From the human T2T-CHM13v2.0 reference genome, Homo sapiens, in assembly GCA_009914755.4 (NCBI GenBank), contig CP068257.2:29504001-29568000 (forward strand): DNA of 64,000 nt, given 5' to 3'. Of the stretch, positions 17,989 to 30,832 are shown piece after piece. A program made the translations under genes and the position numbers. Below the pieces are notes generated by a model. It saw nothing but the letters and a program-made list of their open reading frames with translations, did not search any database and was not told the origin of the DNA. The stretch's first letter is position 1. Every line of letters starts with the position of its first letter.

Positions 17989-18168
17989 CTTCACGTAGGT
18001 GCGCTCCGTCTCCAGGAGCTCGCAGATCACCTTGCGCAGCTTATCTGCATCCGAGAGTTGTCTCATGGTCGCCAGCTGAGGCCCCGTGGAGTCCTGAGGA
18101 GATGGGCTCTGGTCAGAGGGGTTCATCTCATGCAAACTGCGGCAAAATGCGGCCACCTGTTCTGTACT
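17989..18168 (-). CDS. TIAM1: TIAM1 coding exon (start of DH domain), 180 nt; STEQVAAFCRSLHEMNPSDQSPSPQDSTGPQLATMRQLSDADKLRKVICELLETERTYVK
   Basis: Donor is GTGAAG|gtatgt. The acceptor is placed after the long polypyrimidine tract ccttcccttcccccctgtgctccgaag|AGT. It starts and ends on codon boundaries and joins the upstream exon (…HSSK) in frame. Confidence 0.8.
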
Positions 18169-19576: not shown

Positions 19577-22500
19577 TCACGCTTCTCTCTCTGCTTCTAT
19601 TGTCTAATTCAACTCTAGGCACAAAGCATTTCCAGTAAATACCGGTGCAAATAAAGAATAACTTCTTCTATCACCCACCTACCTAGCAAGAACATGAGAA
19701 TACCCTCCCAAAAACAATCGTTGGTGCACAGAGCTAAAAGTCAAGGCTGCTGTTTTGTGTAGGTCAGAAAAGCTAAAATCAAGTGTATGCCATGGAGGAG
19801 TTTTAAACACAGAGGAAGGCAGCCAACACTGAAGAGCCTTTCCCTCATTAGCATATCCAAAAGGGAAGGAAGTCTGGAATAAAGATGAGGCAAGGACAGG
19901 GAAAATCAGAACCTAAGAAGGATGCATTAGCTGCAGTGGCATGACAGGACAGAGGAGAGCCAGGACCCACATCCACATAATTATTATTCTAATTCTCTTA
20001 CAATTACCACAGCTTATTCATTGCTAGCACTAACCCTGGTCTTATATGCCAGAAGGTGTCAGTCACCTGTCAGTGGCACTATTCAATGTTTTCTGTGGAA
20101 ATGCATGTTTCTGACACTGAGTAACCCCACAAACAATTTTCCCTTAGGTGACTGACTGGAAAAATTGACCAAAATGGGCTCAGCTCTATGGTATGTAAAT
20201 TATATCTCAACAAGGCTGTTAGAAAAGAAAAACTGTGTTTTTCATCAAAGCTTGTTTCAGTAGAAATAAACTAAACAATTTTATTTAGTTAGCTAGAATT
20301 TCACTAACTCAAAATCATCATTAAATATACAGTCAAGTAGGGCTTTGTCTTAAAAATTACAAAGGAACAAATACATCCATTTTAGCAAAAAATCTTCATG
20401 TGTCTTTTAGATGATCCAGTGATAACTGTAATAGAAAACTCATTATAACACAGTCATAATGAGAAAGAAAGCAAACCCTTGCCAAAATGAAAATCCATGG
20501 ACAGACAGTGATAACAGCTGACAACTAACTGTGCCCTGTCCCTGTCTTATCCCAAACTCTCCTTGGTTGCTTTGATTTGGTACCTGGCAAAGGCACCTAA
20601 CACAACAAATGTATAATTGGCACCTCGCTTTATACCATCCTTTTCTAAAGCTTCCAACAGTAACCACAGCTGTCTGTTTTTCACAGAATTAATAGGAAAG
20701 CTACTGCTCATAGCAAATATATTCTTCACTGCAGTCTATTACAGTGAGTCCTCACTTAACATGGTTTATAGGTTCTTGGAAACTGACTTTAAGCTAAACG
20801 GCATAAAGAAACCATTTTTACTGTAGGCTAATTGATACAAACAAGTTAAGTTCCTACAGCACATTTCTGGTCAAAGAAAAAATCACCACGCTTCTAAATA
20901 AAGACCAAAAGACTTCTAATATTAAACACTGAAATAAATGTAAGCCAGATATCCATTTAAGTAAGATAAATAAAAACAAGTTAAGAGAACTATTTACCCA
21001 GCTTTTGGTGAACTGGTGAGTGACGGTGGTCATAGCGGTAGTGTGTTAAGTCAAGCAATAAATGTTTGCAAAGCAAAAATTGTTAAGGGGCACCTCCTAC
21101 CATCATGCAGTTCAAAAACTAGCAAGAACAACTTTGGCAGGATCTCTGAATACTTTTGTACTGCATAGTTTCCTGCTATGCATTTGTATGATTGTATACT
21201 TTACAAGTTTTTATTTTATAATGATTTGTATTCACTTATTCACTCATTTTCCAACCCACTTATTCCAGCTCAGGATCATGGGTGACTGGAGCCTATCTTG
21301 ACAGCTCAGGGTGCAAGGCAGAAACCAACCCTGAATAGAATGCCATTCCATCACAGGGTGCACACACATACACACTCACTCAGGGACCACTGAGACATGC
21401 CAATTCATCCCATGTGCGCGTTTTTGGGCTGTGAGAGCAAACCCGAGTACCCAGAGAAAACCCACGAAGACCTGGATTTAACATGCAAATTCCACGCAGA
21501 CAGTGGTCCTGGCTAGAAATCAATTTTTTTCACATAAACGTTATGATGAAATGATGTTGAACAAAACGTTATCTGAGGAACTGCCACAGAGGCAGAGCAC
21601 ACCTTTTATCATTTAGGCAAACTGTGTGAAATCGTGATTCACGAAAGGCAAACATGGGGATCTGACACATATCAAAGGCAGGAAATTCCAAAAGACAAAG
21701 GAACCTAACACATTCCTTTGTGCTTCCAATTCACACCTCACTACCTCTGGGTTTTCATTCCATCTGTTCTACCATAAATACTTTGAGAATTCCATTTTTA
21801 AGAGTGTGAACAGGGTTTCTGACTTGGTCTATGTAAGTTTACCACGCCTGAGGTTTGGCATCCTTAGTTTGAAGCAGGCCTGTGGGGTGAGCTCAGGTTA
21901 GTAGGATGCAGGCTAGGGCTTCAGTCCTCTAAATTCAGCTGTCTCCTAGGCCCAACCTCACCCTCAGACAGCCAGAGATAAGTTCTGGCTTATATTAGGA
22001 AACACCTTTAGCATCTCAGGGGACAGCTAAAATTCCCTTGGGTCCTCTTTGGACATTTCACAGCCTTAAGTATCCCTTCCTTATTAGGTACGACCTAGGC
22101 CTAGGATAGACTTAGCTGAGTGGTCTCTCAAGTTGAGCAAGGGGCAAAGCAGTTTCCCCACCGGCAACCCTACTCAATGAATCAAGGCACCAACCCTCAG
22201 GTGTAGCACAAGGAACTGAGTCCAGATGGATGTAATCTCTTTACTGTCAACTGCACGTTATTTGAATAAAGAATAAAAAGGTACCATATGCATCATTACA
22301 AGTTATAATGCACATACATGTTGTTAAGCGGTGTTATATACAAGCCTCTTAAAATTTGCTTGGAAACAAATTAAAAGGATGTCATCAAGTTTGAAAATTC
22401 TGTTTTATTAAAATAACACCCCCCCAAATTTTTTTTGGAAGGAATTATGAAATGCAGGTTTTCTTTAGAATACCTCTAAGCTAGAGATTTTTCCATACTG

Positions 22501-24186
22501 TGGGGCTCAGCTTTTAAATCCCCCTCCCTCTTTACTGTGGCCAAACTTCTTTACATCAAAATCCATCAGGCCCTTCTCCACGCAGCTTAGCCATGATGTG
22601 GAATATAGGAGGAGTTGGGTTCAAGGCTTTGCCCCGCTCCACCACTGAGTGTTACAGATGGCATCCTAGTCATTCCCACACCAAGCGCTGTAGCCACAAG
22701 TGCCAAGAAAGGTCGCCTCAATGGGAGCTTCTCAACACGCTCCCAAAAGCCAAGTATCCTGGATGTGGGACAAGCAGCTTAGGACTCCAGCAAGGGGAAG
22801 GCAGACCAGGTTTCTCCAGTGGGGAAAGTAAAAACCTCTCCCCTACTTGAGGACTGTAATCAGTCACCCTGGAAACCAAAAAAGTACTTACAGGCATTTT
22901 GAGAGTTTAAAACTGTTAAAGGGTAGCAGAGCTTTTCCACTGTCAGGACTAAGAATTATCCAACCAACATACAGACAAGGAGAGGACAATGGCAAGAGGA
23001 AATGGGCCACTTTACTGAGACCAGCGTGATGCTCAATGTTTATAATGCTGCTTTCCTCCTGTGGAAGATGAAAAGAAAGTACAAAAAGAGGGGGTAGACT
23101 TTTAAGTACACACTATCAACTCAAGCCACCCAGCTGTTTAAGCTCTTCCTGTTATGCAACCACCAAAGGCAATTTCTAACTCTAGATGAGTTCACAGTTC
23201 TAAAACTGTTCTTTGAGTCTGACCGATTTAACACATCCCACAGATTTAAAAGGGGCCAGAGTGGCCTAAAATCTTATAGCCTTTACTTAAGCTTTTTTTG
23301 GGGACAATGCGCTCCATAATTTCAGAGACACTATGTACAATGGTAATCCCTACAGTTCTCGATCACCTTTTCAGTTTCCTCTTGAACAAACTTCAAAGAA
23401 GAAATATCCAAGAAGGAAGAAGGCTTATTTGAGCAAATCAGGTGTACGCACTGTAGAAGTTTAAGTTTGATTAAATGACACAACATCTAATAGTCGACAG
23501 ACTGAGCTATTAATAATAAACTATTAAAAGGTTGAATCTGATTTTGCTAAATTATTTCTTGCCATTACCCCACTACACTTCCTCATTGGAGAGTGAATAT
23601 TTACTGTAGGAATAGACCTGTTCAAATAGGTCAGTTGCTGTCAAACCAGTAACACGTCCCCTGAGCCAACCCTTCTATATCTATCTCCTTCTCAAGGAAG
23701 CAGAAATAAAGTCAAAAACACCTCAAGCCTTATAAAAGGAAACAAGTTGAACATCCTATTTCCAGACCTCCCTGCCGATCACTCGGACAGCCCGTTCTGA
23801 GGGGGGATGGGAGATTCTCACCATGCACGTAACACAAAACACAATCAAAATCTCAATAACCAAAACAAAGGCAAAAAATGCAACTGACCATTAATTAAAC
23901 AAAAAAATGCAGATTACATCTTTCTGCCATTTAAGTATAAAAGAGTAGAAAAATGTAAAGATGCTAGGCAAATTCAACTCCATACCAACTCTGAACCTCC
24001 CCACGTCCCCCACCAAAAGCCACAATACAGACTTTATGAACAAGGGTATCCAGAGGGTAAAAGGACAGAATACGGGGAAATGGGAAAGGTGTAATCACTG
24101 TCATTCGGATTGAAAAACAACTGAGCTAGAAAGTCATAACACAATCAAACCTAGCAAGATAGGATTCAAACAGCAAAGGCGCTCAC

Positions 24187-24341
24187 CAGATGAAGTGTTC
24201 GATACATAGAGTCACCGGACTTGTCATTGTTTTCAATCCTGGGCTTGCGCTTTATTTTCCACAGTGCAGACATCATCAGGAATGTATTCTCATGGTAATT
24301 AATTCTACCACCTGACGTGTTCAGCACGGAGACAGAAGTTT
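24187..24341 (-). other. Candidate unannotated exon: 155 nt, open in the frame compatible with the flanking TIAM1 exons (…TSVSVLNTSGGRINYHENTFLMMSALWKIKRKPRIENNDKSGDSMYRTLHL)
   Basis: It ends on a consensus donor, CATCTG|gtgagc, and has a usable acceptor tattttaag|AA just after an in-frame stop. The 51-codon open frame would join the DH exon at 18168 in frame. It contains an in-frame ATGATG. This could still be a chance ORF. Confidence 0.3.
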
Positions 24342-24720
24342 CTTAAAATATTCCCAGAGCACCAAACGCCTCCTAGCTCTGAAGAGAGCATCCTCTCATA
24401 TGGACGTCCCATGCTGGTTTTCCCATGAAAATCTACGGCCACGTCTCAACGCAGCAAGGACAGCGACGGTGAGACCCCGGAGCTGCACTCGCTTCCCACC
24501 AGTGCCCTCTGGGAAGCTGTCAAAGGCTAAACTGTGGACCAGAACTCAGGCTTTGATTTCACCTGGCTAAACAACAAAAGTTCCAGAAAGGGAGAGCTGA
24601 AACTGGCAAGAAAACAAAGCACAAAATGCCTCCCCGGGATGTAAGCGTCTCTGCCCTGCAGCCTGAGATCAGCTGATTGGCCAGCATCCTGCACTGCTCA
24701 GGAATATTAAACCTGCCCGG
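24300..24720 (-). promoter_or_regulatory. CpG-retaining unique block carrying a perfect CCAAT box (minus-strand tggCCAATcag at about 24676-24684); candidate internal promoter or enhancer
   Basis: About 15 CpGs in about 420 bp, far above the surrounding intron. The CCAAT box matches the NF-Y consensus. A (GT)22 repeat lies at its upstream edge. Confidence 0.3.
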
Positions 24721-24776
24721 CTCCGACAACTTTCAAGGTATTCCACACTGAGTCAAGAGCAGGCAACTAAGAAAAG

Positions 24777-24778
<2 letters not shown>

Positions 24779-24822
<44 letters not shown>
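24779..24822. repeat. (GT)22 dinucleotide microsatellite
   Basis: An uninterrupted run of gtgtgt…. Confidence 0.95.
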
Positions 24823-24824
<2 letters not shown>

Positions 24825-25859
24825 AACAGTTGATAATTTCACATTTTTCCACTCATGCTTTGTTATAAAAGCAGACATTTCTGAGACAAAAACAATATGG
24901 ATGAGAAAGAAAAAGTCATTCCTAATGGAAATGTCCTGAAAATTATTCTAATACATTTGCTAAATGGAAAACACAATCACAGCTGCCAGGCGGCCTGGAA
25001 TGCATGACACATGACCGCACTGCCCTGAAGCTAATTAGCATTCATCTCCAGAAACAAGAGTTTTCAATGAGAAGCAGAGAAAAAAGTAGCCAGTGATGAT
25101 GAGGCTTTTTGAGGTTGTCACCCACAGTCACAGGAGAGAGGAGGCGGCTCAGAAAGAGAAAGGCTGCTAGACTGTCCCTGCAGTGTGACATTCCCCTGCC
25201 CCTCCCCAGCGGCTGTGACATTCCAGTACCACCACGCTCAACAACAAGCATACAATTATTTACTTGCTCAACTCTAAAAGGCCACACATAGCAAAAACTG
25301 CTATTCAGTACAAGTGCAAAACATACAGAACTCCAACATGCTTTTTCTTTATGCTGACCGATATCATGTAAAACAGTCCATTTAGAAAGAAACCAAGAAT
25401 ATTACACAAAATCAACAGCTCTAACATATTCAGCTGGAATAAAAAGTGATTATTTGTTTCTGTTTATTTAGTTATTTACACATTTACATCTCTACACTCA
25501 GCCTCGTGCATTCAGACAAGGCTAAATCATGCTTCCGAGTTTAGACAGCTAACGATTGAAAAATTAATTTTCAGCTTATTCTCAAGAAAAGCTTCACACT
25601 TATATAGGAGACGCATCAAAAAATATTTAGCCTTGATCAAGAAACTTCAGGTGTTTTCTTGCTCTTACTTTAAATCATAAAAAGAGACACACAGAAACAT
25701 TAAGCATTAGGAAAAAATTTAAGTGGTTTATGGCTGTATATATAAATGGCCTACAGCACCACTAATAAATTAATTCCTTCTTTTTATGAAACCCAGTATT
25801 TAAAACCAGATGTTAACAATCTGGACACAAGGTAGTTTTAACATAGCCACTAACAAGAC

Positions 25860-26070
25860 AAGACCTGGAGCCAAACCAGGTTTGCATCCTGGTTTTGTCA
25901 TCACAGAGCTGTGTGACCTTCAGCAAGTCGCTTAACCTCTCTGTTCCAGTGCCCTCATCTATAAAATAGGGCAGATAATAGTATCTCCCTCAAGAGTGTT
26001 GTGAGGCTAAGATGAGTTAATATGGAACAGTGCCTAATATATACAAGACCTTAAATAAGTATTACTTCTC
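25860..26070 (+). mobile_element. MIR fragment
   Basis: Reads …ctgtgtgaccttcagcaagtcgcttaacctctctgttccagtgccctcatctataaaatagggcagataatagta…gagtgttgtgaggctaagatgagttaatat…cagtgcctaatat. Confidence 0.6.
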
Positions 26071-26227
26071 ATTTACTATTAATAACACACAGTAGAACCC
26101 AGCCACCAAGAACTGCTCATTTAAGCTTTTTGCGTTCAAATACCCTAAGTGAGAAATTTAATTGACCAAAGGTTATTTTAGCTAACTAATTTGAGTTGCA
26201 TGACAAAATTTCAAATAGAGAAGATGA

Positions 26228-26524
<297 letters not shown>

Positions 26525-27852
26525 TAATTTTGAGAAAATTCTGTCCCTTTTTAGAAAGCCCACTAAGAATTTCTACAAGAAAATCTTTGAACAGCACCAT
26601 CTATTTCTATATTTGACCCTTCATGTTCCAGATAAGTTCAAGAGCCTTGTTCTCTGGAAAAAGAACCACGGAGTCAGAGCGACACATGGGACCAGTCAGC
26701 AAAGCCCTGGAGCCTCTTCCGTCCTCTCCACTGCCAGAACCTCATATTATACAGGACTCTGTTTATGACCTCATGACTCACTATATTTAACATGGAAACG
26801 ATCTCTCTCAAAATCCACAAGGAGATGAGAACACTGACCTATCAAAGTAAAGTAAAAATGACCTAATCATTTTGGATCCAATACTTTTTAAGTGTTCAGA
26901 AATAAATGTTTTAGATACAGGAAAAATAGCTATTTGCCTAAATCCAGTTAGAAATTGAAAATTAATATTTTTAGTTCTTATAATACTGTAACTTAATAGA
27001 TACCCTTCAAATTGTCTTACATCAGTATAGAAATATCTGTTTCTCCTGAGGACAACTGACCGACCCCACAAAAGTAAGTGGGTAAAAGAAATGTAAGGGT
27101 CACCTAAATAAAAAGGAACTTTAAGCAGTTGGTTTTTTAAATTTGCCTTAAAAGGAAACATGTGCATTTCCAATGATCTGCTTTTTAATTAACAACCAAC
27201 AACATAATGCCTTTCAGTCTATAAATATTAATGTTGCTTTCAAATATTAAATTTTATATTGTGCCCAACTTAAAAAGACACTGAGAATGAAGATCCTACA
27301 GTCAGGAAAGAGAAACAAATATGGATAAAAGATACTGAAGAATCAAATATGTGCACACAAGAAAGTCCTACAGAATATACACATACAGGGGGAATCAAAA
27401 CAGGAAATGTACAAACGTAGGTTTTCAAAATAATAGTTCATGTTTGAAAAGCATTTTTCCATTATCAATGTGCTTTCTCATAGTTATATTATTTGACCCA
27501 CCCAAAAATCCAATCTCCAAGCAAAGGTAAGAATCACCCTGATTTTGCAGATGAGAAAACAAAAGTATACAGTTATGTGATTTGCTTAGGTTAAGTGACT
27601 AGTAAGCGTCAAGCAAAAAAAAGAGAGATCGTAGAGAAATATACATATCTCAACAACATTATAGAAAAAGATGAATAAGTATGGAAACAAAATCACACGC
27701 AATTGCTTTTTTTGCGGGGGCAGTGTCGTTTGGATTCAGGTAACACAGAGGTTTTAAGTTGGGTTGTGTTTTGAAGACTGTGGTAAAAGAGGCTACTGAC
27801 CCATGGAACTCTTTATGAAGTGGAATAGAAGCATGATAAGTTATGGGCAACA

Positions 27853-28151
27853 GGCCGGGTGCAGTGGCTCACGCCTGTAATCCCAGCACTTTGGGAGGCC
27901 AAGGCGGGTGGATCACGAGGTCAGGAGATCGAGACCATCCTGGCTAACACGGTGAAACCCTGTCTCTACTAAAAATACAAAAAATTAGCAGGGCGTGGTG
28001 GCGGGTGCCTGTAGTCCTAGCTACTCGGGAGGCTGAGGCAGAAGAATGGCGTGAACCCGGGAGGCGGAGCTTGCAGTGAGCCGAGATCACGCCACTGCCC
28101 TCTAGCCTGGGCGACAGAGCGAGACTCCATCTCAAAAAAAAAAAAAAAAAA
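27853..28151 (+). mobile_element. Alu SINE (AluY-like); target-site duplication attatgggcaaca
   Basis: Near-consensus AluY with poly-A tail. The flanking direct repeat lies at 27841 and 28151. Confidence 0.92.
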
Positions 28152-28705
28152 TTATGGGCAACAATTTCAGTGTCTTGCACCAAAAAGTCAGGAGAACTTT
28201 CTTACTATGTTCAACTAAGGGAAAGTGTATTTGGATTAATTTTAAAATATGGTTTCTTTCCCTTTAACATAAAAGTTGCTCACTTTTAACAAGAGCTGAA
28301 TGCAGGTAATTCAAAAGGAGTTCATTACAGAAACCCTAAGTAGCAAGAAAGCATAGCTGACTCAATCCCACATACTTTTGATGCTGTTTCATCCTACACA
28401 AATGAAGATGTAATAGGGAAATGGAATAAAATTATGGCATTAACTGGGAGCTCCAGCAGTGGCAGAAATTTAAGAAAAGGGATTTTATTTCATTACGAGT
28501 GATTTCTCCCCTATATTCTCACATACAGGTTTGTTACCAAGGCTATAATTTGGATTTCATTTCCTGCTATTCAGCAACATCTCAGAAGCAAAAACACTTC
28601 GTCCATGGAGAGGCCTGGTAACCACATACAGCTGTGTAGGTGACATTGTCAGCTGTGATTCTTCAGTGGTTCAAAGCATGGGATGTGAAAATGAAAATCT
28701 CTCAC

Positions 28706-28809
28706 CTTGCTGCTGTGATCAGTCTCATCTGAGGATTCCAAGTCTGGCCCCTCGGTCTCCTCTGGAGCGGTCTCAGCACTGCTGCCCTGCTCGCTGCAAA
28801 GGCTGTGCC
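28706..28809 (-). CDS. TIAM1: TIAM1 coding exon (linker between PDZ and DH), 104 nt; (G)HSLCSEQGSSAETAPEETEGPDLESSDETDHSSK
   Basis: Acceptor is tctgacag|GG, donor is AGCAAG|gtgaga. I located this exon by predicting its peptide from recalled TIAM1 sequence. It joins the PDZ exon (…NP+G) and the DH exon (STEQ…) in frame. Confidence 0.85.
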
Positions 28810-29031
28810 CTGTCAGATGAAATCAGAAGAAAATGTGGGTCAACATGGACAGTAATTGCTAAAAGCCACCCCTGTGTGAGGGGGACAAGGAATCTCGCTC
28901 ATGACATGTACATATACTGTAAGACCCTCCAAGTACAAGCTCCATCACCTGGGCTCAATCAAATTAAAATGATAGTTGTTACTGTTACTACTAGTATTAT
29001 TACTTTATATTTTTCATAATAAATAATAGTT

Positions 29032-29410
29032 GTTGTGGATTGAATGTCTTTGTCTCCCCCCATACAAATTCTTATGTTGAAGACCTACCCCTCAATGTAA
29101 TAGTAGTTAGAAGAGGGATGTTTGGGAAGTAATTAAGTTTAGATGAGGTCATGAGGGTGGGGTCCCCATGGATGAGATTAGTGTCATAAGAAGAGATAGA
29201 AACCAGAGTTCGTTTTCTCTCTACCATGTAAGGACACAGTAAAAAGGCAGCCGTCTGTAAGCCAGGAAAAGAGCCCTCACCAGGAAACTGAATTGGTTAG
29301 TACCCAGATGATGGGGCTTCCCAGGCTCTAAAACCATGAGAAATAAATGAGTGTTGTTTAAGCCACTCAGTTTATGGTATTTTGTTACAACAGCCTAAGT
29401 TAAGACAATA
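29032..29410 (+). mobile_element. MaLR-type LTR (MST/MLT-like)
   Basis: Reads …gaggtcatgagggtggggtccccatggatgagattagtgtcataagaagag…accatgtaaggacacagtaaaaaggcagccgtctgtaagccaggaaaagagccctcacc…aaataaatgagtgttgtttaagccactcagtttatggtattttgttacaacagcctaagttaagaca. Confidence 0.6.
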
Positions 29411-30832
29411 ATAATTTATAATAAAAGAATATATATATTATATACTAAAAAATTAACTGATTTTGTTGATTTTACAATTAGCAAATTGATGAATTAATTC
29501 ATTAATTACTAAAATAATTAAATAAGCCATACTGAGAACAGTACAACAAAAAAAATGACTGTCCCATATCCATTACCTGAAAAATCCTGCAACGTCTGTT
29601 TTTGCCATGTCTGGCAAACTATAAACATCTTATAATACCTGCTCTTCCCATGATATTCTGTGCAAAAGTGCAAGCAACTTTCTTCCTTTGCTATTTACTG
29701 AGTGCCCACCACAGTGGTTCTCTATAGTGGTCCTCTGCGTTGAGAAGAGAATATGAGGATCACTTTCCCCTGGGGTGCTTCTCAAACTGACAGAGCATCT
29801 GGATCCCCAGGGGAACATGTTTAATGCAGATTCTCATTCAACAGGCATGGGGTTGGGCCTAAGACTGTGTGTTCCTTACTAGCTCCGAATGATACTAATC
29901 AAAACTGCAGGTCCATGGACCACACTTGGAATAGAAAGACTCTAGAACATTAAAAACCTTCTCTAATTGAATCTGAGAAGACAGTGGATTGAGTACCACT
30001 GTCCTAAAATATGAGGCACTGGATCACGGACTAGAGCACTATCAATATAACCAGACAAGAGAGAAGGAAAGAGAAGAAATGGGAGCAGAAGGAGCCCCTG
30101 ATGCTTTAGATGAAAGATTCCGTCTGCAAAGTGGCTACCTTGCTCCAATGACACCATTACAGCTGTAAGCTGCCTGGCAACACTTTCTATTCAGGTCCAA
30201 GCTGGCCAGGAAAGTTAGGGAGGAAGTGGACCCCTGAGCAAACTTGGCACCAATGCTGCCTCCTACCATCCCTTTCTTCTCTGGAATGAAGCACCAACTA
30301 AGTGAGTGTACCCTGAATGGCTTAGAGGTTTCTGTGTGTTTCCCCACCTTTTGGCTCTGGCTCTTGGATTTTCTTGTGTTACTTTTCAGTATTCAATCAC
30401 TCATTACTTGCTCTTAAGGTGGTAGTGGTCAAAGAAGGAAGCTCAGTTAACTTGGCAGATATCATCTATGGCAACTGCCATTGCCAAAGCAAAAGTGCTT
30501 GAATATTTTGCACAGGGGCAATGACCTAGGTACAGGTACTGATCCCTGATGTGGAACAGCTGACAAGCTCATCTGGGAACACAATGGCAACAGCACTCAG
30601 TGCTCTGATCACAGGAACCACAGCATCCTCAGTGGGACGTCCGGAGCAGCCAGGAGGCACGACTGACAGGGGCCCCCTTCACACTGTGGTCTGCAGAATC
30701 ACAACCTCCTGGAGTTGAACAACCCATATACACTGTGCAGAGAAATGCTGTAACCCTGCACATCCCATCGCTCACAATGCCTAGGATAGCTGATGCTCAT
30801 AAAATAGTGGGAAAGCAAATAAAAGGATTTCC

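What the first reader, a model, noticed from the sequence alone, without database searches (positions are those of the whole stretch)
24187..24341. Exon-like 155-nt segment in the intron upstream of the DH domain, frame-compatible with the flanking TIAM1 exons
On the gene strand there is an AG acceptor (tattttaag|AA) placed just after an in-frame stop. A 51-codon open frame follows (TSVSVLNTSGGRINYHENTFLMMSALWKIKRKPRIENNDKSGDSMYRTLHL). It ends at a textbook donor, CATCTG|gtgagc. The segment is 155 nt, so length mod 3 is 2, the same phase class as the canonical 104-nt linker exon at 28706-28809. If it replaced that exon it would join the PDZ exon (…NP + G|AA = Glu) and the DH exon (STEQ…) perfectly in frame. 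If it were included in addition, it would shift the frame and hit a stop almost immediately, acting as a poison exon. It also carries an in-frame ATGATG (24271-24276). A transcript beginning here and splicing to 18168 would therefore encode an N-terminally truncated TIAM1 made of the DH domain onward, an architecture resembling the known activated C-terminal TIAM1 fragments. The caveats are that a 51-codon open frame occurs by chance about 9% of the time per frame, and that I cannot tell whether this exon is already annotated.
Basis: partly seen in the sequence, partly recalled or inferred. Interest (0 to 1): 0.55.

Follow-up and report, generated by a model that had tools for sequence, protein, structure and literature searches.

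The report
Known first exon of short TIAM1

Summary
The sequence features are all present: AG at 24343-24342, a 51-codon open frame, the donor CTG|gtgagc at 24187|24186, and an in-frame ATGATG at 24276. The segment is real but already known. The 30 codons from ATGATG to the donor, joined to the TIAM1 C-terminal 594 residues, give exactly NP_001340613.1, "TIAM1 isoform 2 [Homo sapiens]" (UniProt A0A1B0GW57), with predicted orthologues in many mammals. A human RNA contig carrying this ORF runs collinear with the window from 24608 to 24187 and then splices to 18168. The donor is therefore used. The proposed acceptor is read through; it scores no better than 64% of all AGs in the window. The exon is a 5'-terminal exon of at least 422 nt, with a conserved CCAAT box 65-74 nt upstream. 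The 30-codon ORF shows a coding signature: 17 of 27 changes fall at third positions, and a rodent-like contig has an in-frame codon deletion. It is recognisable down to reedfish. The whole-segment frame needed to swap in-frame for the 104-nt exon is broken in three mammalian lineages. The short isoform was cloned and studied in glioblastoma (PMC8551657).

The parts
24187..24608 (-). Alternative 5'-terminal exon of the short TIAM1 transcript. At least 422 nt; the 5' end is the end of the RNA contig, so the true start site is at or upstream of 24608.
   Evidence: Logan human RNA contig L020 nt 1-422 is 100% collinear with window 24608->24187 and then jumps to 18168.
24187..24276 (-). Coding part of that exon: MMSALWKIKRKPRIENNDKSGDSMYRTLHL (30 codons, ends in phase 0).
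   Evidence: Peptide plus the TIAM1 C-terminal 594 aa equals NP_001340613.1 exactly. 17 of 27 substitutions fall at third codon positions, P=0.0015. In-frame 1-codon deletion in the rodent-like L011.
24181..24186 (-). 5' splice site gtgagc, in use.
   Evidence: Junction 24187|18168 in L020. Invariant in all six mammalian sequences and also present in L017 and L016. Matrix score in the top 0.6% of GTs in the window.
24342..24343 (-). The AG proposed as acceptor. Not used in the observed transcript; it lies inside the 5' UTR.
   Evidence: L020 reads through it. The Oryx Gnomon model P0084 translates through it. Score -7.3 bits, with A at -3 and a 14-nt deletion just upstream in tamarin.
24276..24293 (-). 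Five-codon upstream ORF ATGAGAATACATTCCTGA (MRIHS*); its stop overlaps the main ATG.
   Evidence: Position and length are kept in tamarin, three laurasiatherian-like contigs and the rodent-like contig (MRLYL*). A regulatory role is inferred, not shown.
24673..24682 (-). GGCCAATCAG, a CCAAT box 65-74 nt upstream of the 5' end of the RNA contig; candidate core element of the intronic promoter.
   Evidence: Single match in the window. Conserved in human, tamarin, L001, L003 and L011. Promoter function is inferred.
17989..18168 (-). First DH-region exon (STEQVAAFC...TYVK), the splice target of the alternative first exon.
18094..18095 (-). Alternative AG acceptor inside the DH exon (cctcag|GACTCC, exon start 18093). 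It gives the 599-aa short isoform.
   Evidence: The predicted isoforms P0074, P0076 and P0086 read ...TLHL|DS(T/A)GPQLATM. The calculated human mass of 68.29 kD matches the 68 kD quoted for NP_001340614.1 in PMC8551657.

Best explanation
The flagged 155 nt are the 3' part of an alternative first exon of human TIAM1. This exon lies in the intron between the 104-nt linker exon and the first DH-region exon.

Transcription starts from an intronic promoter at or a little upstream of window position 24608. A conserved CCAAT box sits about 70 nt further up. The exon runs uninterrupted to the donor at 24187 and is spliced to the DH exon at 18168.

Translation starts at the ATGATG (24276/24273), after a 5' UTR carrying several upstream ATGs. 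It gives a 624-aa protein: 30 unique residues followed by the DH-PHc catalytic half and the C-terminus. The protein lacks the N-terminal PH-CC-Ex, RBD and PDZ regulatory modules.

This is RefSeq TIAM1 isoform 2 (NP_001340613.1). The 'acceptor' AG lies inside the 5' UTR and is not a splice site in the observed RNA.

Shown: protein identity, the splice junction, collinearity through the AG, conservation and the coding signature. Inferred: the exact start site, promoter function of the CCAAT box, and constitutive activity of the protein (suggested by the authors of PMC8551657 from earlier truncation work).
For: - Exact look-up of the 30-aa exon peptide joined to the TIAM1 C-terminal 594 aa finds NP_001340613.1, 'rho guanine nucleotide exchange factor TIAM1 isoform 2 [Homo sapiens]', A0A1B0GW57. 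It sits in a cluster of 112 with predicted 624/599-aa isoforms in apes, macaque, horse, elephant, bat, whales, camel and mouse lemur. All of their N-termini begin M(M)SALWKIKRK....
- Logan contig L020 (4155 nt, ending just after an AATAAA) carries this exact ORF with RhoGEF and PH_Tiam1 domains.
- L020 aligns at 100% to window 24608-24187 and then to the downstream exons: 18168, 16876-16806, 16503-16376, 10758-10640 (this one at 97.5%), 5252-5071 and 4983-4862.
- The exon block is 86-97% identical in tamarin and three non-primate mammals, against about 57-75% in the flanking intron for the non-primates.
- 17 of 27 changes in the 30 codons fall at third positions (P=0.0015).
- The rodent-like contig has an in-frame codon deletion.
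- Non-mammalian contigs keep ATG...SLY..L.L|gtgagc 2-3.5 kb upstream of the DH exon. Reedfish TIAM1 isoform X5 has ...MSILRKNKQRL...SLYKMFHE-STEH.
- Calculated masses of 71.01 and 68.29 kD match the 71 and 68 kD given for NP_001340613.1 and NP_001340614.1.
- PMC8551657 reports that this short isoform was amplified, sequenced and expressed from glioblastoma cells.
Against: - Only one RNA contig was available, so the start site is a lower bound. An assembly could in principle extend into unspliced pre-mRNA.
- I could not read the RefSeq mRNA record itself, so its annotated exon boundaries are not verified here.
- The 14-mer tattttaagaaact that contains the AG is invariant in six mammals. A plain 5' UTR does not explain this.
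Confidence: 0.93

Rival explanations
1. Conserved poison (NMD) cassette exon. The 155 nt are spliced between the 104-nt exon and the DH exon in transcripts from the main promoter. This introduces a stop (KLLSPC*) and down-regulates full-length TIAM1.
For: - Inclusion would create a premature stop in all six mammalian sequences.
- The AG and the surrounding 14 nt are invariant in six mammals.
- The donor is strong and in use.
Against: - The acceptor has A at -3 and almost no polypyrimidine tract, and scores below most random AGs.
- Tamarin has a 14-nt deletion where the tract and branch region should be.
- The only RNA seen reads through the AG, as does the Oryx gene model.
- Conservation collapses immediately 3' of the donor, unlike typical ultraconserved poison exons.
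- The third-position substitution bias points to protein coding in the ATG frame.
Confidence: 0.05
2. Mutually exclusive in-frame coding exon that replaces the 104-nt linker exon. It would put a 52-residue insert between the PDZ and DH regions of full-length TIAM1.
For: - Length mod 3 and the open frame fit in human, tamarin and the rodent-like contig.
Against: - In three laurasiatherian-like lineages the segment is 151 nt and the frame has stops.
- The acceptor is weak and is read through.
- No protein with ...SNPETSVSV... was found. That search is insensitive, so this point is weak.
Confidence: 0.02
3. Chance pseudo-exon in an intron, with no function.
For: - AG...GT pairs with an open frame are common. 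42 segments of 150-300 nt in this window have both site scores at least as good as the candidate's, because its acceptor score is so low.
Against: - Exact match to a RefSeq protein.
- Spliced RNA.
- Strong conservation with a coding signature from fish to human.
Confidence: 0

Closest known systems
Human TIAM1 isoform 2, NP_001340613.1 / UniProt A0A1B0GW57 (and the 599-aa NP_001340614.1)
   Same: Identical. The exon's ATG-to-donor ORF joined to the downstream TIAM1 exons reproduces the 624-aa sequence residue for residue. The same isoform was cloned and expressed in PMC8551657.
   Different: Nothing differs in the coding part.
TIAM2S, the short form of the paralogue TIAM2 (NM_001010927; PMC7408714)
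   Same: Same logic: a short transcript of a TIAM-family Rac GEF that, from my own recollection, keeps the DH-PH catalytic half and lacks the N-terminal regulatory domains. A milkfish TIAM2 685-aa form (P0099) has an N-terminus (MPVLRLGSLRRKS...VLYRLLFL|) that resembles the TIAM1 short N-terminus.
   Different: A different gene. Homology of the two first exons rests on a short, statistically untested resemblance. The human TIAM2S N-terminus was not examined here.
Experimental and proviral N-terminal truncations of Tiam1 (C1199, C580; own knowledge, and ref. 39 cited in PMC8551657)
   Same: Loss of the N-terminal regulatory region with the DH-PHc retained. Such truncations are reported to stabilise and activate Tiam1.
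   Different: Those are artificial constructs or insertion products. This is a natural transcript with its own promoter, its own 30-residue N-terminus, and conservation across vertebrates.

Membership tests
TIAM1 isoform 2 (RefSeq NP_001340613.1) first coding exon | The exon ORF joined to downstream TIAM1 exons gives the exact annotated protein | tested here: met
   The exact-sequence look-up returns NP_001340613.1 / A0A1B0GW57.
TIAM1 isoform 2 (RefSeq NP_001340613.1) first coding exon | Splice junction from the exon's donor (24187) to the DH exon (18168) present in RNA | tested here: met
   L020 aligns 1-422 to 24608-24187 and 422-603 to 18169-17988, all at 100%.
TIAM1 isoform 2 (RefSeq NP_001340613.1) first coding exon | The exon is 5'-terminal, transcribed from an intronic promoter | tested here: inconclusive
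   The contig reads 267 nt past the AG and ends 65-74 nt downstream of a conserved CCAAT box. There is only one contig and no CAGE data, and the RefSeq mRNA was not readable here.
TIAM1 isoform 2 (RefSeq NP_001340613.1) first coding exon | The product keeps the DH and C-terminal PH domains | tested here: met
   PF00621 RhoGEF and PF23014 PH_Tiam1 hit the 624-aa product.
Cassette / poison exon | Functional 3' splice site at the 5' boundary | tested here: not met
   AAG acceptor scoring -7.3 bits; 64% of AGs in the window do as well. The RNA and a gene model read through it. The matrix is approximate and written from memory.
Cassette / poison exon | Junction reads from upstream TIAM1 exons to 24341 | not testable with these tools
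   No RNA-seq junction database is available.
Cassette / poison exon | Premature stop on inclusion | tested here: met
   A stop arises within 7-16 codons in all six mammalian sequences.
In-frame alternative coding exon (swap for the 104-nt exon) | Open frame and length class conserved across species | tested here: not met
   151 nt with stops in L001, L003 and L009; open only in human, tamarin and L011.
Internal-promoter short isoforms of TIAM-family GEFs (TIAM2S-like) | Homologous unique N-terminal exon in TIAM2 | tested here: inconclusive
   The phmmer alignment to milkfish TIAM2 (P0099) extends 8 residues into the unique peptide. Several full-length hits extend about as far by chance.

The most novel reading that the evidence does not exclude
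The short-isoform 5' exon is an ancient, separately regulated module rather than a tumour oddity. It would comprise an intronic CCAAT promoter, a position-conserved 5-codon uORF whose stop overlaps the start codon, an invariant 14-mer in the 5' UTR, and an N-terminal peptide (MSxL[W/R]-basic...SLY.xL.L). The peptide is kept from ray-finned fish to human and may be shared with TIAM2 short forms, which would date it before the TIAM1/TIAM2 duplication. On this reading vertebrates have selected for a translationally gated, N-terminally truncated TIAM GEF that is probably constitutively active.
Probability: 0.35. Interest if true: 0.35.

Novelty: already known. Interest (0 to 1): 0.12.

Why it matters
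For a genome scan this counts as a successful re-discovery. It adds nothing new to the annotation.

The modest residual value lies in three details that I did not find described in the two papers I read or in my two literature searches:
- the deep conservation of the 30-residue N-terminus;
- the uORF abutting the start codon;
- the conserved CCAAT box.

These would be starting points for studying how the short isoform is regulated.

Tried and rejected
- **Word-indexed protein searches.** Searches with the 51-aa peptide and with peptide plus DH exon returned only short ORF calls on genomic contigs and one ab initio tamarin model. They did not return the annotated isoform, although it is in the collection. 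Their silence was therefore not evidence of absence. They did supply the orthologous DNA used afterwards.
- **Exon-skip version of the second isoform.** I first assumed the 68-kD isoform skips the small 61-84 exon. That exact look-up failed. The 599-aa models show that it uses an internal acceptor in the DH exon instead.
- **TATA-box idea.** I considered that 'tattttaag' might be a TATA box with a start site about 30 nt downstream. I rejected this for the observed transcript because the RNA contig starts at least 267 nt upstream.
- **Rfam.** A scan of 20000-30000 found nothing.
- **Literature.** A search for accession numbers and 'short TIAM1' found only PMC8551657 and its preprint.
- **Searches not run.** I ran no further search on hypothetical cassette junction peptides, because clustering at 90% identity would hide such isoforms and a negative result would be uninformative.

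Full report
**1. Observation**

On the minus strand the window reads ...gggaatattttaag|AAACTTCTG...CATCTG|gtgagc. The AG is at 24343-24342, the segment runs 24341->24187 (155 nt), and the GT is at 24186-24185.

Frame 1 gives KLLSPC*.
- The description is therefore accurate.

An approximate splice-site matrix, with frequencies written from memory, separates the two ends clearly.

| Site | Score | Rank in the window |
|---|---|---|
| Donor at 24187\|24186 | 5.5 bits | top 0.6% of 6617 GTs, in the range of the real TIAM1 exons |
| Proposed acceptor (A at -3, six pyrimidines) | -7.3 bits | 64% of the 9082 AGs do as well |

**2. What it is**

A protein search with the 51-aa peptide found four short ORFs, all beginning at the internal MMSALWK.

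- Three are ORF calls on Logan genomic contigs of non-primate mammals.
- One is an ab initio tamarin model that uses the same donor.

Their DNA, plus further contigs reached through the DH exon, allowed a cross-species comparison.

- The human intron aligns over kilobases to tamarin (about 87%) and to three non-primate mammals (about 73-76%).
- Within that background, the block from 'tattttaag' to 'gtgagc' stands out. Identities to human:

| Region | Tamarin (L010) | Three non-primate mammals (L001, L003, L009) | Rodent-like (L011) |
|---|---|---|---|
| 24276-24187 (ATG to donor) | 94.4% | 93-97% | 76.7% |
| 24341-24277 | 96.9% | 86-89% | 67.6% |
| 180 nt after the donor | 80.2% | 57-65% | 32.4% |

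- Non-primate laurasiatherian-like contigs lack 4 nt upstream of the ATGATG. Their segment is 151 nt, and the whole-segment frame contains stops there.
- The ATG-to-donor ORF is kept in all six mammalian sequences.
- 17 of 27 minimal substitutions in that ORF fall at third codon positions (P=0.0015).
- A rodent-like contig from a JGI metagenome has a clean one-codon deletion: MSSLWKIKRKPRVE-SDRAGDSLYRTLHL.
- Two more distant vertebrate contigs keep the same arrangement 3.5 and 2.2 kb upstream of their DH exon: ATG, a basic stretch, SLY..L.L and |gtgagc.
- Reedfish TIAM1 isoform X5 reads ...MSILRKNKQRLNSQNEFHSPESLYKMFHE-STEH.

**3. Identification**

A literature search found a JBC 2021 paper, PMC8551657.

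- It reports over-expression in a glioblastoma line of an N-terminally truncated TIAM1 corresponding to RefSeq NP_001340613.1 (71 kD). NP_001340614.1 (68 kD) is the other short isoform.
- The product was amplified 'from the start site', sequenced, expressed, and shown to promote Lgl1 phosphorylation.

I built the candidate protein from the 30-aa exon peptide and the TIAM1 C-terminal 594 residues. Of these 594 residues, about 262 map to exons inside the window; the rest were recalled from memory.

- Its calculated mass is 71.01 kD.
- An exact-sequence look-up then found it as NP_001340613.1, 'rho guanine nucleotide exchange factor TIAM1 isoform 2 [Homo sapiens]', UniProt A0A1B0GW57.
- It sits in a cluster of 112 members with predicted 624/599-aa isoforms from orang-utan, gorilla, macaque, horse, elephant, bat, whales, camel, mouse lemur and others.
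- Their N-termini all read M(M)SALWKIKRK....

The exon is therefore annotated and its product has been studied.

**4. Exon limits and mechanism**

The same exact protein is carried by a Logan RNA contig, L020 (SRR28330353). It is 4155 nt long, has its ORF at 333-2207 with RhoGEF and PH_Tiam1 hits, and ends just after an AATAAA.

- Nt 1-422 align at 100% and without a gap to window 24608->24187.
- The next segment starts at 18168 and continues through the downstream exons.
The exon is at least 422 nt long and behaves as a first exon.
- The Oryx Gnomon model (P0084, 663 aa) also translates collinearly through 'ttaagaaac' as L-R-N.
- GGCCAATCAG, a canonical CCAAT box, lies 65-74 nt upstream of the contig's 5' end. 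It is the only match in the window and is conserved in human, tamarin, two laurasiatherian-like contigs and the rodent-like contig.
- I infer an intronic CCAAT-type promoter with a start site near 24608. This is not shown.

The 5' UTR holds five upstream ATGs. The last one opens a five-codon uORF (24293-24276, MRIHS*).

- Its stop overlaps the main ATG.
- Its position and length are conserved in all six mammals.

The 599-aa isoform uses an internal acceptor in the DH exon, at 18093. Its junction reads HL|DSTGPQ, and the calculated mass is 68.29 kD.

**5. Rivals**

- **Poison-exon reading.** The arithmetic is right in every species. It still needs a working acceptor, and I found no evidence for one. 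Tamarin even lacks 14 nt where the polypyrimidine tract should be.
- **In-frame swap for the 104-nt exon.** The broken frame in three lineages contradicts this reading.
- **Chance.** Searches exclude it.
- **Unexplained.** The 14-mer tattttaagaaact (24350-24337), which contains the AG, is invariant in six mammals.

**6. Comparison with what is known, and verdict**

- The feature is a member of an already known kind. It is the first coding exon of TIAM1 isoform 2 and works like TIAM2S in the paralogue, which is also a short DH-PH-only product.
- A milkfish TIAM2 short form has a similar N-terminus: MPVLRLGSLRRKS...VLYRLLFL|. This hints at a shared ancient first exon. The similarity is short, and I did not test it statistically.
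- Novelty: already known. Interest: low.
Its headline cassette-exon reading and its 5' boundary are not supported.

Noticed in passing
window 24276-24293 (-): A five-codon uORF, ATGAGAATACATTCCTGA, in good Kozak context (accATGa). Its TGA overlaps the main ATG of the short isoform. Length and position are kept in tamarin, three laurasiatherian-like contigs and the rodent-like contig (MRLYL*). This suggests control by termination and reinitiation.
   Followed up: partly
It is conserved in six mammals, even where the neighbouring bases diverge or are deleted. The reason is unknown.
   Followed up: no
window 24673-24682 (-): GGCCAATCAG (an NF-Y-type CCAAT box) is conserved in five mammalian sequences and lies 65-74 nt upstream of the 5' end of the RNA contig. 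It is the likely core of the intronic promoter.
   Followed up: partly
window 18093-18095 (-): An alternative 3' splice site inside the DH exon (cctcag|GACTCC) removes 25 codons (STEQ...SPSPQ). It is used by the predicted 599-aa short isoforms in macaque, horse and siamang. The calculated human mass matches the 68 kD quoted for NP_001340614.1.
   Followed up: partly
P0099 (milkfish TIAM2, XP_030643226.1) and P0236 (reedfish TIAM1 X5): The unique N-terminus of the short isoform (MSxL[W/R], a basic run, SLY.xL.L just before the DH-region exon) is recognisable in reedfish TIAM1. It resembles the N-terminus of a 685-aa milkfish TIAM2 form, which hints that the short-isoform first exon predates the TIAM1/TIAM2 split.
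   Followed up: partly
L010 10001-10673 (Saguinus oedipus GCA_031835075.1): The tamarin genome annotation breaks TIAM1 into pieces. 'Hypothetical protein P7K49_032194' (P0004) starts at the short-isoform ATG, uses the same donor, and then splices to a spurious nearby exon instead of the DH exon.
   Followed up: no
window 24299-24302 region (-): Primates carry an extra 4 nt (aattAATTacc) relative to laurasiatherian-like mammals, and the rodent-like contig has a different insertion. These indels decide whether the whole 155-nt frame is open. Its openness in human therefore looks incidental.
   Followed up: yes
window ~26390-26500 (-): The first ~110 nt of the 22000-26500 query matched about a dozen places on both strands of the 20-kb tamarin locus at 72-87% identity. 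This indicates a dispersed repeat (Alu-like, not identified).
   Followed up: no
The word-indexed protein search did not return the annotated 624-aa isoform or any full-length TIAM1, although both the human entry and its cluster representative start with the query peptide. Negative results from that tool on short eukaryotic peptides should not be read as absence.
   Followed up: yes
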